Part shown: positions 55,902-58,363 of the stretch, one piece after another
Position numbering within the stretch: the stretch's first letter is position 1
Layout of the letters: each line of letters begins with the position of its first letter
NCBI RefSeq assembly: GCF_009914755.1
Contig: NC_060936.1
From: the human T2T-CHM13v2.0 reference genome, Homo sapiens
DNA: 64,000 nucleotides
Direction: 5' to 3' (one strand)
The notes under the pieces: model-generated
Databases searched by the model: none
Told to the model about the DNA's origin: nothing
What the model saw: only the letters and a program-made list of their open reading frames with translations
Made by a program: the position numbers and the translations under genes

Positions 55902-56937
55902 TGTAGGGACCAGCCCCACAGGGTCAGTGGGTCTCCCCCTGTGTGCGGCGACGAGAGTGTAGAAATAAAGACACAAGACAAAGAGACAAGAGAAAAGGCA
56001 GCTGGGCCTGGGGGACCACTACCACCAATGCGCGGAGACCGGTAGTGGCCCTGAATGTCGGGCTGCGCTGTTATTTATTGGATACAAGGCAGAAGGGGCA
56101 GGGTAAAGAATGTGAGTCACCTCCAATGATAGGTAAGGTCACGTGGGTCACGTGTCCACTGGACGGGGGCCCTTCCCTGCCTGGCAACCAAGGCAGAGAG
56201 GGAGAGGAGACACAAAGACAGCTTACGCCATTATTTCTGCATATCAGGGACTATTAGTACTTTCACTAATTTACTACTGCTGTCTAGAAGGCAGAGCCAG
56301 GTATACAGGATGGAACATGAAGGCAGACTAGGAGTGTGACCACTGAAGCACAGCATCACAGGGAGATGGTTAGGCCTCCGGATAACTGCGGGCAGGCCTG
56401 ACATCAGTCAGGCCCTCCACAAGAGGTGGAGGAGCAGAGTCTTCTCTAAACTCCCCCGGGGAAAGGGAGACACCAACCCCCACCCCCGCCCCCCCGCCCC
56501 CCGGTTCCCGGTCTGCTAAGTAGTGGGTGTTGTTCCTTGACACCTTTTGCTACCGCTGGACCACAATCCGCCTGGTAACGGGCGTCTTCCCGTCTTCCCA
56601 GACACTGGCTTCACCGCTAGACCAAGGAGCCCTCTGGTGGCCCTGTCTGGGCATAACAGAAGGCTTGCACTCTTGCCTTCTGGTCACACCTCACTATGTC
56701 CCCTCAGCTCCTATCTCTGTATGGCCTGGTTTTTCCTAGGCTATGATTATAGAGCGAGGATTATCATAATATTGGAATAAAAAGTAATTGCTACAAACTA
56801 ATGATTAATGATATTCATATATAATCATATCTAAGATCTATATCTGGTGTAACTATTCTTGTTTTATATTTTATTATACTGGAACAGCCCGTGTCCTCTG
56901 TCTCTTGCCTCGGTGCCTGAGTGGCTTGCCACCCACA
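55902..56937 (-). mobile_element. Solo LTR13 (ERVK, HERV-K13/HML-4 type), copy 1, sense to GOLGA3
   Basis: TG...CA termini; 5' end TGTGGGTGGCAAGCCAC on -; 6-bp TSD GACTTC at 55896-55901 and 56938-56943; family from recalled consensus. Confidence 0.88.
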
Positions 56938-57399
56938 GACTTCCTCAACAGAACTTTCCTGGCTACTCTCCAGTTTATTTTATTTTTTTGGATAAACATA
57001 GAAATTTTCTTCAAGGCCGGGCGTGGTGGTTCACATGTGTAATCCCAGCACTTTGGGAGGCTGAGGCGGGCAGATCATTTGAGGTAAGGAGTTCAAGACC
57101 AGGCTGGCCAACATGTTGAAACCCCCGTCTCTACTAAAAATACAAAAAAATGAGCCAGGCATGGTGGCACACACCTGTAATCTCAGCTACTTGGGAGGAT
57201 GAGGCAGGAGAATCACTTGAACCCAGGAGGTGGAGGTCGTAATAAGCCGAGATCATGCCACTGCACTCCAGCCTGGGTGACAGAGTGAGACCCTGTCTCC
57301 AAAACAAAAAAAAATTTCTTCAAAAAGGAAGAACATTCTGTTGAACTATAACCACCTTAAATCCATAATTTCCTCCGCCTGCCCACATCTGCTTGCACG

Positions 57400-58363
57400 T
57401 GTGGGCGGCAAGCCACCCAGGTGCCGAGGCAAGAGACTGAGGACGCGAACTGTTCCAGTATAATAAAGTATATAAAATAAGAATAGTTATACCAGATATA
57501 GATCTTAGATATGATTATATATGAATATCATTAATCATTAGTTTGCAGCAATTACTTTTTATTCCAATATTATAATAATCCTCACTCTACAATCATAACC
57601 TAGGAAAAACCAGGCCATACAGAGATAGGAGCTGAGGGGACACAGTGAGAAGTGACCAGAAGACAAGTGCGAGCCTTCTGTTATGCCCAGACAGGGCCAC
57701 CAGAGGGCTCCTGGGTCTAGCGGTAACGCCAGCATCTGGGAAGACGCCCATTGCCAAGCAGACCATGGTCTAGCGGTAGCATCAGTGTCAAGGAAAAACA
57801 CCCACTACTTAGCAGAGTTTAGAGAAGACTCTACTCCTCCACCTCTTGTGGAGGGCCTGACATCAGTCAGGCCCGCGCACAGTTATCCGGAGGCCTAACC
57901 ATCAACCTGTGATGCTGTGCTTCAGTGGTCACACTCCTAGTCTGCTTTCATGTTCCATCCTGTACACGTGGCTCTGCCTTTTAGATAACAGTAGCAAAAT
58001 TAGTGAAAGTACTAAAAGTCTCTGATATGCAGAAATAATGGCATAAGCTGTCTCTCTCTCTCCCTCTCTCTCTACCTCAGCTGCCAGGCAGGGAAGGGCC
58101 CCCTGTCCAGTGGGCACGTGACCCACGTGACCTTACTTATCATTGGAGATGACTCACACTCTTTACCCTGCCCCTTTTGCTTTGTATCCAATAAATAACA
58201 GCACAGCCTGACATTCGGGGCCACTACCTGTCTCCACGTCTTGGTGGTAGTGGTCCCCCGGGCCCAGCTGTCTTTTATCTCTGTCTTGTGTCTTTATTTC
58301 TACACTCTCTCGTCTCCGCACACAGGGAGAAAACCCACTGACCCTGTGGGGCTGGACCCTACA
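57400..58363 (+). mobile_element. Solo LTR13, copy 2, antisense to GOLGA3
   Basis: Starts TGTGGGCGGCAAGCCACCCAGGTGCCGAGGCAAGAG, ends GGACCCTACA; TSD TGCACG at 57394-57399 and 58364-58369. Confidence 0.88.

What the first reader, a model, noticed from the sequence alone, without database searches (positions are those of the whole stretch)
56627..57710. Divergent CTCF-motif pair created by the inverted LTR13s: a possible retrovirus-built insulator
Seen: the identical 16-mer GGCCACCAGAGGGCTC on minus at 56642-56627 and on plus at 57695-57710, pointing away from each other ~1.07 kb apart. Knowledge: it matches the CTCF core (CCACCAGRGGGC); LTR13 is among the primate repeats reported to carry CTCF sites; divergent CTCF pairs typify bidirectional loop anchors and domain borders. 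Inference: two insertions together may have created a lineage-specific boundary inside GOLGA3, between its promoter and ANKLE2.
Basis: partly seen in the sequence, partly recalled or inferred. Interest (0 to 1): 0.78.

Follow-up and report, generated by a model that had tools for sequence, protein, structure and literature searches.

The report
Paired retroviral LTRs carrying CTCF motifs
Two old retrovirus remnants that landed head-to-head in a GOLGA3 intron each carry their family's inherited CTCF-binding motif, so the outward-facing motif pair is real, but it is an expected by-product of a repeat family already known to bind CTCF and nothing here shows that it acts as an insulator.

Summary
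GGCCACCAGAGGGCTC lies at 56627-56642 (-) and 57695-57710 (+), pointing apart.

Each copy sits at position 296-311, on the sense strand, of a roughly 1 kb solo LTR:
- Left LTR: 55902-56937, sense on the minus strand, target-site duplication (TSD) GACTTC.
- Right LTR: 57400-58363, sense on the plus strand, TSD TGCACG.

The separate TSDs show two independent insertions, head-to-head and 462 bp apart, with an Alu inserted between them.

The LTRs belong to the LTR13 group (HML-4/HERVK13). They align end-to-end with the MIR4448 copy, which is named LTR13 in print. Homologous LTRs also flank a betaretrovirus-like provirus.

The motif is inherited from the family:
- It occurs exactly 201 times in the genome; the reversed control gives 0.
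- It is present in 30 of 41 sampled copies.
- It is no better conserved than an average non-CpG stretch of the LTR.

I found no occupancy or insulation data for this locus, so the insulator claim is untested. My estimates: about 50% that at least one site is bound, and about 10-15% that the pair forms a real boundary. This is a new instance of a known kind, of modest interest.

The parts
55896..55901 (.). Target-site duplication GACTTC, outer copy, of the left LTR
   Evidence: Identical hexamer at 55896-55901 and 56938-56943
55902..56937 (-). Left solo LTR (1036 bp), LTR13 group. Its sense strand is the window minus strand, with the 5' end at 56937. It is in the same orientation as GOLGA3.
   Evidence: TG...CA termini and TSD. 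Full-length homology to 41 other genomic copies. Sense strand set from the chr19 provirus.
56627..56642 (-). CTCF-like 16-mer GGCCACCAGAGGGCTC, at LTR position 296-311 on the sense strand, pointing towards lower coordinates (the GOLGA3 3' end and ANKLE2)
   Evidence: There is no CpG inside it; the nearest CpG is at 56615.
56938..56943 (.). Target-site duplication GACTTC, inner copy, of the left LTR
57015..57314 (+). Alu inserted in the spacer between the two LTRs. It is flanked by near-identical direct repeats (AAATTTTCTTCAA at 57002-57014; AAATTTCTTCAA at 57312-57323). Without it the two integration sites lie roughly 150 bp apart.
   Evidence: (Alu-type repeat families D1-D4)
57394..57399 (.). 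Target-site duplication TGCACG, inner copy, of the right LTR
   Evidence: Identical hexamer at 57394-57399 and 58364-58369
57400..58363 (+). Right solo LTR (964 bp), LTR13 group but a different subgroup from the left one. Its sense strand is the window plus strand, antisense to GOLGA3. It lacks a C-rich stretch of about 60 columns (alignment columns 556-615) that the left LTR has.
57695..57710 (+). CTCF-like 16-mer GGCCACCAGAGGGCTC, at LTR position 296-311 on the sense strand, pointing towards higher coordinates (the GOLGA3 promoter and CHFR)
   Evidence: There is no CpG inside it; the nearest CpGs are at 57670 and 57721.
58364..58369 (.). Target-site duplication TGCACG, outer copy, of the right LTR

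Best explanation
Shown: two solo LTRs of the LTR13 group (HERV-K HML-4/HERVK13) integrated independently. Their integration sites were roughly 150 bp apart in a GOLGA3 intron, and their 5' ends face each other. An Alu later landed between them.

Shown: every LTR of this family was born with a strong CTCF core motif on its sense strand, about 300 nt from the 5' end. Both copies here have kept it by ordinary descent. The motif contains no CpG and is no better kept than any other non-CpG stretch of the LTR.

Shown: because the LTRs are head-to-head, the two motifs must point outward. The 'divergent pair' is a geometric by-product of the orientation.

Inferred: like roughly a third to a half of intact LTR13 copies, one or both sites are probably occupied by CTCF in many cell types. 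Each would then stall cohesin arriving from its own outer side. That makes them ordinary intragenic CTCF sites or weak loop anchors rather than a major domain border. My odds are about 50% that at least one site is bound, about 25% that both are, and about 10-15% for measurable two-sided insulation.
For: Independent insertions:
- Each LTR has its own perfect 6-bp TSD, GACTTC and TGCACG.
- The arms are 8.9% diverged and differ by private indels.
- The two LTRs have different nearest relatives (versus 45).
- The right LTR departs from the left-type majority at 62 columns. Its neighbours L063-L065 share 30-36 of those states; the left LTR shares only 6.

Family identity:
- Both LTRs align end-to-end with the chr3 copy L062. 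L062 matches the miR-4448 construct printed in PMC6036181.
- miR-4448 is listed as ERVK/LTR13 in a table of PMC10379226.
- Homologous LTRs flank a chr19 provirus with Gag_p10, Gag_p24, dUTPase, RVP, G-patch, RVT, rve and HERV-K env domains.

The motif is ancestral to the family:
- 201 exact copies in the genome against 0 for the reversed control.
- 183 of them carry the LTR-type extension CCTT and 5 carry CCTG.
- It is present in 20 of 29 copies that were chosen by the other half of the LTR only, and in 30 of 41 unique copies overall.
- It is present in 9 of 18 of the right LTR's own relatives on contigs 1-10 (my cross-reading).

No extra constraint: 73.2% of copies keep the window exact, which equals the median of 556 non-CpG 16-nt windows (rank 266).

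Prior for binding:
- LTR13 has 492 instances, 379 of them in open chromatin. Of the 210 open in K562, 82.9% are CTCF-bound (PMC3649963, passages).
- LTR13 drives a human CTCF expansion (PMC4248313).
- 82 LTR13 sites lose CTCF when zinc finger 10 is deleted (PMC9878928).
- LTR13 is enriched among human TE-derived loop and boundary CTCF sites (PMC9902604).
Against: - No locus-specific occupancy, methylation or contact data could be obtained, so every functional step is inferred from family-level statistics.
- Those statistics are for elements that RepeatMasker labels LTR13. I could not tell whether the left LTR, which belongs to a second and less diverged subgroup, would be labelled LTR13 or LTR13A.
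- KRAB zinc-finger proteins target this group; ZNF845 is reported as the main binder of LTR13A (PMC8415367). Silencing is therefore plausible.
- The 41 sampled copies are the best-scoring of about 600 candidates, and several look like segmental duplicates (chr16, chr3, chr9). The fractions are approximate.
- Two LTR13 insertions within about 150-460 bp are unexpected under uniform integration. I expect roughly 0.02-0.07 such pairs genome-wide, from about 680 copies in 3.12 Gb, by my own arithmetic. Something beyond chance, such as an integration preference, may be involved, and this explanation does not cover it.
Confidence: 0.85

Rival explanations
1. Retrovirus-built insulator. Both motifs are occupied by CTCF and cohesin, and together they form a lineage-specific, two-sided domain border inside GOLGA3 that separates the GOLGA3 promoter/CHFR side from the GOLGA3 3'/ANKLE2 side.
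For: - The divergent orientation and the roughly 1 kb spacing are real.
- There is no CpG in either 16-mer, so by recalled knowledge of CTCF's methyl-sensitive core positions the core cannot be blocked directly by methylation.
- LTR13 is enriched among human TE-derived loop anchors and boundaries, and one LTR13 loop anchor was shortlisted as a top candidate (PMC9902604).
- The chromatin state of LTR13 is described as consistent with the insulator protein CTCF (PMC3649963).
- Divergent CTCF sites as a boundary signature: PMC7422557, title and abstract start seen in a search listing only.
Against: - There are no data for this locus.
- Only about 174 of 492 LTR13 copies are bound in K562 by the published figures, and most CTCF sites are not boundaries (general knowledge).
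- The family shows no extra conservation of the motif.
- GeneHancer links quoted in PMC11754661 join one enhancer near hg38 132.686 Mb to genes on both sides of this point (ANKLE2, GOLGA3, CHFR, ZNF84 and others). That paper draws the region as one insulated neighbourhood. This is annotation-level evidence and weak.
- The site lies in the body of a transcribed gene.
Confidence: 0.12
2. Inert relics. Both motifs are intact in sequence but unoccupied, because the LTRs are packed in H3K9me3/KZFP-TRIM28 heterochromatin or covered by nucleosomes in a transcribed gene body. They have no architectural effect.
For: - By the published numbers roughly two thirds of LTR13 copies are not CTCF-bound in K562.
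- A KZFP (ZNF845) is reported as the main binder of LTR13A.
- Conservation of the motif is at the neutral level.
- No RefSeq functional element is listed for 55.9-58.4 kb in the hub's annotation table. That list is cut short, so this is weak.
Against: - 77% of LTR13 copies contribute to open chromatin in at least one data set, and the family is open 'in almost all cell type'.
- Both motifs here are exact copies of the family's form, the same as in the 30 of 41 sampled copies that keep it.
- The core has no CpG.
Confidence: 0.45
3. Co-transcriptional role rather than insulation. Intragenic CTCF on the LTRs slows RNA polymerase II just downstream, in the direction of transcription, of the alternative exon at 58837-58932 and favours its inclusion. 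Alternatively, the main consequence of the pair is RNA-level: the two LTRs fold into a long double-stranded hairpin in the GOLGA3 pre-mRNA.
For: - GOLGA3 is transcribed from high to low coordinates, so the alternative exon (hub annotation) is met 0.5-2.3 kb before the two LTRs.
- The minus-strand RNA of 55902-58363 folds with 913 of its 1079 base pairs joining the two LTR arms. Its minimum free energy is -1905 kcal/mol, against about -770 to -800 for 3 shuffles.
- CTCF-promoted exon inclusion is recalled from the literature (Shukla et al. 2011) and was not read here.
Against: Nothing was tested at the level of transcripts, RNA editing or polymerase pausing. The CTCF-splicing effect is reported for sites close to the exon. 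The hairpin is a consequence of any inverted repeat and says nothing about CTCF.
Confidence: 0.08
4. The pair arose by a single inverted duplication (a palindrome) of one LTR, not by two insertions.
For: Long inverted repeat with arms of about 1 kb.
Against: - The two LTRs have different perfect 6-bp TSDs.
- Homology stops exactly at the TG...CA ends of each LTR.
- The arms belong to different subgroups with different nearest relatives.
Confidence: 0.01

Closest known systems
LTR13-derived CTCF binding sites (Jacques et al. 2013, PMC3649963; Schwalie et al. 2013, PMC4056453; Sundaram et al. 2014, PMC4248313; Hyle et al. 2023, PMC9878928). Passages read.
   Same: Same repeat group. The same inherited motif occurs at the same LTR position in most copies. 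The family is primate-specific.
   Different: Those papers report family-wide enrichment. None that I could read lists this locus. Here two copies from two subgroups sit head-to-head about 1 kb apart, which gives a divergent pair. Occupancy at this locus is unknown.
TE-derived loop anchors and domain boundaries in human (Choudhary et al. 2023, PMC9902604; passages read), including a CRISPR-validated L1MC1 anchor and an LTR13 candidate anchor
   Same: The proposed mechanism is identical: a transposon brings a CTCF motif that stalls cohesin and creates a lineage-specific loop or border.
   Different: Their cases are backed by ChIP-seq and Hi-C, and by deletion for L1MC1. This one rests on sequence only. 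Their LTR13 candidate is shown only in a figure (Supplementary Fig. 5), so I could not tell whether it is this locus.
Divergent CTCF site clusters at TAD boundaries (Nanni et al. 2020, PMC7422557; title and abstract start seen in a search listing only)
   Same: Reverse-then-forward motif order within about 1 kb.
   Different: Boundary status is defined by contact maps, not by motif order, and no contact data were available here.
Rodent B2/B3 SINE-borne CTCF expansions (Schmidt et al. 2012; known to me only as cited in PMC4056453)
   Same: A repeat family seeded with a CTCF motif spreads binding sites.
   Different: The scale differs: tens of thousands of sites in rodents against fewer than 300 LTR13 binding events in primates.

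Membership tests
Solo LTR of the LTR13 group (HERV-K HML-4 / HERVK13) | Retroviral LTR termini (TG...CA) with a 6-bp target-site duplication | tested here: met
   Both LTRs read TGTGGG...CCCTACA on their sense strand. They are flanked by GACTTC/GACTTC and TGCACG/TGCACG.
Solo LTR of the LTR13 group (HERV-K HML-4 / HERVK13) | Full-length homology to an element named LTR13 by RepeatMasker | tested here: met
   Both LTRs align end-to-end with the chr3 copy L062: 1-1036 and 1-964, at 82-87% identity with gaps counted and about 90% over aligned bases. L062 matches the printed miR-4448 construct. miR-4448 is tabulated as ERVK/LTR13 (PMC10379226). No Dfam or RepeatMasker run was possible, and LTR13 versus LTR13A is not resolved for the left LTR.
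Solo LTR of the LTR13 group (HERV-K HML-4 / HERVK13) | Homologous LTRs flank a betaretrovirus-like (class II, HERV-K) internal region | tested here: met
   In the chr19 locus L061, between two same-strand copies (L020, L027), Pfam finds Gag_p10, Gag_p24, zf-CCHC_5, dUTPase, RVP, G-patch, RVT_1, RNase_H, rve, HERV-K_env_2 and GP41 in stop-to-stop frames. A primer-binding-site-like sequence follows ...CCCTACA.
Solo LTR of the LTR13 group (HERV-K HML-4 / HERVK13) | Copy number of some hundreds | tested here: met
   593-610 first-look candidates in the genome. Published figures give 492 LTR13 plus about 190 LTR13A (130/0.69). The candidate counts are rough.
CTCF binding site | Match to the CTCF core motif | tested here: met
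   CCACCAGAGGGC fits CCACCAGRGGGC 12/12. The same 12-mer is used as a CTCF motif in 10.1101/336156. It fits 12 of 13 positions of my recalled degenerate core. No position weight matrix was available.
CTCF binding site | Occupancy by CTCF in cells (ChIP-seq, CUT&RUN) | not testable with these tools
   There are no chromatin data in the tool set. Supplement look-ups for this locus found nothing.
Insulator / domain boundary | Divergent (reverse-then-forward) CTCF motif arrangement | tested here: met
   Minus-strand motif at 56627-56642 and plus-strand motif at 57695-57710.
Insulator / domain boundary | Cohesin co-occupancy, a local insulation minimum, or loops in contact maps | not testable with these tools
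   No Hi-C, Micro-C or RAD21 data available.
Insulator / domain boundary | Loss of insulation or enhancer blocking when the element is deleted | not testable with these tools
   This needs an experiment.
Exapted (selected) regulatory element | Motif conserved above the neutral background of the repeat | tested here: not met
   Across 41 copies the motif window is exact in 73.2%. That equals the median of 556 non-CpG windows (rank 266) and ranks 290 of 997 over all windows. This is a family-level test. Constraint on this one locus across species was not testable.

The most novel reading that the evidence does not exclude
Two different LTR13 subgroups inserted one after the other within about 150 bp, and the second insertion completed a two-sided, CTCF/cohesin-bound border inside GOLGA3. 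On this reading, a catarrhine- or hominoid-specific domain boundary was assembled stepwise from retroviral parts. Species carrying only the first LTR would have a one-sided anchor. A related open point: the right LTR shares a rare variant beside the CTCF core with three other independently inserted LTR13 copies, all within about 1 Mb of 12q24.33. This hints at locally clustered integration or gene conversion that seeded several CTCF motifs in one neighbourhood.
Probability: 0.1. Interest if true: 0.6.

Novelty: new member of a known kind. Interest (0 to 1): 0.3.

Why it matters
If the pair were shown to be bound and insulating, it would be a clean natural example of a boundary built in two dated steps by retroviral insertions. 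It could be tested across primates that carry none, one or both LTRs. As the evidence stands, it is one more intact instance of a repeat family whose CTCF binding has been in print since 2013. What this check settles is the anatomy. There were two independent insertions, the LTR sense strand is now correctly assigned, the motif is inherited and neutrally kept, and the divergent layout needs no special explanation.

Tried and rejected
- Locus-specific evidence in supplements. I searched the held supplementary files of PMC9902604, PMC9878928, PMC5529029 (1 of its 13 files was not searched) and PMC4056453. The terms were LTR13, GOLGA3, ANKLE2 and coordinate prefixes. Nothing turned up for this locus. 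The hg38/hg19 prefixes came from my recalled offset between assemblies and may be wrong, so a miss means little.
- A search for papers holding both GOLGA3 and CTCF (18 papers, 15 listed). I read passages from two. Neither concerns an intronic CTCF site; they cover a CHFR-GOLGA3 read-through transcript and a G4 enhancer.
- A 26-mer with LTR flanks, used to count how many of the 201 genomic motif copies are LTR-borne. It gave only 58 because the flanks vary. I replaced it with 19-mers.
- Genome-wide search for other divergent or convergent pairs of the 16-mer with a long variable gap. Among the 100 places listed (contigs 1-10), no two lie within 4 kb of each other. The remaining 101 places were not all seen, so I cannot say the pair is unique.
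- Inverted duplication origin: rejected on the TSDs.
- My first assignment of LTR orientation (the strand starting TGTAGGG as sense) was wrong. It was corrected from the chr19 provirus. The motif is on the sense strand of the LTR, not the antisense strand.
- Dating. Divergence from the column majority of 41 copies is 3.6% for the left LTR and 7.3% for the right. About half of the right LTR's departures are subgroup states shared with its relatives, so the apparent age difference is not reliable. I give no order of insertion.
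Full report
**Observation.** The 16-mer GGCCACCAGAGGGCTC occurs exactly twice in the window. One copy is at 56627-56642 on the minus strand and the other at 57695-57710 on the plus strand. Nothing else matches within 2 mismatches; shuffles gave a mean of 0.16 matches, and 1 of 100 reached 2. The motifs point away from each other with 1052 bp between them.

**Anatomy.** The two motifs lie in the arms of a long inverted repeat.
- The arms are complete LTRs. The left one spans 55902-56937 (1036 bp) and the right one spans 57400-58363 (964 bp). 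They are 92% identical across alignment columns, with 85 substitutions over 953 aligned bases and K2P distance 0.096.
- Each LTR is bounded by its own perfect 6-bp direct repeat. GACTTC lies at 55896-55901 and 56938-56943. TGCACG lies at 57394-57399 and 58364-58369.
- Two different target-site duplications mean two separate integrations, each later reduced to a solo LTR. A single inverted duplication is excluded.
- The 462-bp spacer holds an Alu (57015-57314) with its own flanking direct repeats. Before the Alu arrived, the two integration sites were roughly 150 bp apart.

**Orientation.** I first took the strand beginning TGTAGGG as the LTR sense strand. A provirus on contig 19 corrected this. 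Two same-strand copies there enclose 8.3 kb whose opposite strand encodes Gag_p10, Gag_p24, dUTPase, protease, G-patch, reverse transcriptase, RNase H, integrase and a HERV-K-type envelope. A primer-binding-site-like sequence directly follows ...CCCTACA.
- The sense strand therefore reads TGTGGG...CCCTACA.
- In the window, the right LTR is sense on the plus strand and the left LTR is sense on the minus strand. Their 5' ends face each other.
- The motif is on the sense strand at LTR position 296-311 in both.
- Given this head-to-head layout, an outward-pointing motif pair is unavoidable.

**Family.**
- Searching the literature for the 12-mer core turned up a paper that prints a miR-4448 construct (PMC6036181).
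- The matching genomic copy (contig 3, locus L062) aligns end-to-end with both LTRs.
- A table in PMC10379226 lists miR-4448 at hg38 chr3:183,886,860 as ERVK/LTR13.
- LTR13 and LTR13A are the LTRs of HML-4/HERVK13 (PMC5753468 and PMC5142424, passages).
- The genome search found 593-610 first-look candidates. This is in line with 492 LTR13 plus about 190 LTR13A.

The two LTRs come from different subgroups of this family.
- The right LTR departs from a majority of 80% or more of 41 left-type copies at 62 columns.
- Three neighbouring chr12 copies share 30-36 of those states, the MIR4448 copy shares 23, and the left LTR shares 6.
- Which RepeatMasker label (LTR13 or LTR13A) the left LTR would receive is not resolved.

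**Is the motif special?** It is ancestral to the family.
- The exact 16-mer occurs 201 times in the genome, against 0 for the reversed control.
- Of those, 183 continue with the LTR-type CCTT and 5 with CCTG.
- Among copies picked with the other half of the LTR only, 20 of 29 carry it. Among all 41 unique copies sampled, 30 do.
- Among the right LTR's own relatives on contigs 1-10, 9 of 18 do (my cross-reading).
- There is no sign of added constraint. The motif window is exact in 73.2% of copies, which is precisely the median of the 556 CpG-free 16-nt windows (rank 266) and rank 290 of 997 overall.
- Caveats: these 41 are the best-scoring copies, and some (chr16, chr3, chr9) look like segmental duplicates.

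**What is known.** LTR13 is an established CTCF-carrying, primate-specific repeat.
- Of 492 instances, 379 contribute to open chromatin. Of the 210 open in K562, 82.9% are CTCF-bound, and the family is open in almost all cell types (PMC3649963).
- It is over-represented among CTCF peaks across primates, though with fewer than 300 binding events (PMC4056453).
- It is named as a driver of a human TE-borne CTCF expansion (PMC4248313).
- 82 LTR13 sites lose CTCF when zinc finger 10 is removed (PMC9878928).
- It is enriched among human TE-derived loop and boundary sites, with one LTR13 anchor shortlisted (PMC9902604).
- HML-4 is dated to about 35 million years ago (PMC5142424).
- For all these papers I read passages, not the whole text.
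- That divergent CTCF sites mark boundaries rests on a search listing (PMC7422557) and on general knowledge.

**What could not be shown.** No tool gives chromatin data, and four supplement look-ups found nothing for this locus. Occupancy, cohesin co-binding and insulation are therefore untested.
- Points in favour of binding: both motifs are exact copies of the family form, and neither contains a CpG. By recalled knowledge of CTCF's methyl-sensitive positions, the core cannot be blocked directly by methylation.
- Points against a strong border: only about a third of copies are bound in K562. A KZFP is reported on LTR13A. GeneHancer links quoted in PMC11754661 span this point (weak evidence). 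The motif shows neutral-level conservation.

**Verdict.** The structure and the origin of the motif pair are settled. The insulator idea is a reasonable but unproven extrapolation from a known family property. My odds are about 50% that at least one site is bound, about 25% that both are, and about 10-15% for a measurable two-sided boundary. It is a new instance of a known kind.

**Side observations.**
- The pre-mRNA strand of 55902-58363 folds into a hairpin in which 913 of its 1079 base pairs join the two LTR arms. Its minimum free energy is -1905 kcal/mol, against about -770 to -800 for 3 shuffles.
- The rare CCTG variant beside the core is found in only five places in the genome, all on contig 12. 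Four of them are full LTR13 copies within about 1 Mb of 12q24.33, and each has its own TSD. I cannot explain this clustering.
- Two LTR13 insertions so close together are themselves unexpected under uniform integration. My arithmetic gives roughly 0.02-0.07 expected pairs genome-wide.

Noticed in passing
window 57695-57713 (+); genome C12:132050544, 132100777, 133034432 (loci L063-L065): The variant GGCCACCAGAGGGCTCCTG occurs only 5 times in the genome, all on contig 12, against 183 copies with ...CCTT. Four of the five are full LTR13-type copies within about 1 Mb of 12q24.33, and each has its own perfect 6-bp TSD (CCAATA, GACAAC, TGCACG, GGCATG). This could be clustered independent insertions of a rare sub-lineage, or gene conversion between neighbours. 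It is unexplained.
   Followed up: partly
window 55902-58363, minus strand (the GOLGA3 pre-mRNA): The two LTRs would fold the intron RNA into a near-perfect hairpin of about 0.9 kb. 913 of 1079 base pairs join the arms, and the minimum free energy is -1905 kcal/mol against about -770 to -800 for 3 shuffles. It is a candidate substrate for A-to-I editing or double-stranded RNA sensing.
   Followed up: partly
window 57704-57723 (+) and 56614-56633 (-); locus L062 (C3:186696277-186697246): In the chr3 LTR13 copy, the annotated microRNA miR-4448 overlaps the 3' end of the 16-mer and runs on 3' of the CTCF core. The homologous stretches in both window LTRs differ from it by a few bases. The CTCF motif and the miRNA arm overlap the same LTR segment.
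   Followed up: partly
genome C1:237327005-237327510 (-) with C1:237330220-237330725 (+); C12:56464235-56465250 (-) with C12:56468372-56469393 (+): Other inverted pairs of the same LTR family lie 2.7-3.1 kb apart elsewhere in the genome. Inverted neighbours are therefore not unique to GOLGA3. Their origin was not examined.
   Followed up: no
window 15626-15638 (+): This is the only exact match in the window to my recalled degenerate CTCF core (CCAGCAGAGGGCA). It lies between the 3' end of GOLGA3 and ANKLE2, on the strand that would be convergent with the left LTR motif 41 kb away.
   Followed up: no
window 58550-59250: Alu-type repeats in both orientations surround the alternative GOLGA3 exon 58837-58932 listed in the hub annotation (families D1-D4 and inverted pairs I4-I6, I12-I14). 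The exon looks Alu-derived.
   Followed up: no
window 56455-56510: The left LTR carries a C-rich tract (runs of C broken by A or G) that the right LTR lacks entirely (alignment columns 556-615). Copies of the family vary in length here; this is the least conserved 100-column stretch of the LTR (0.92-0.93 mean column conservation).
   Followed up: no
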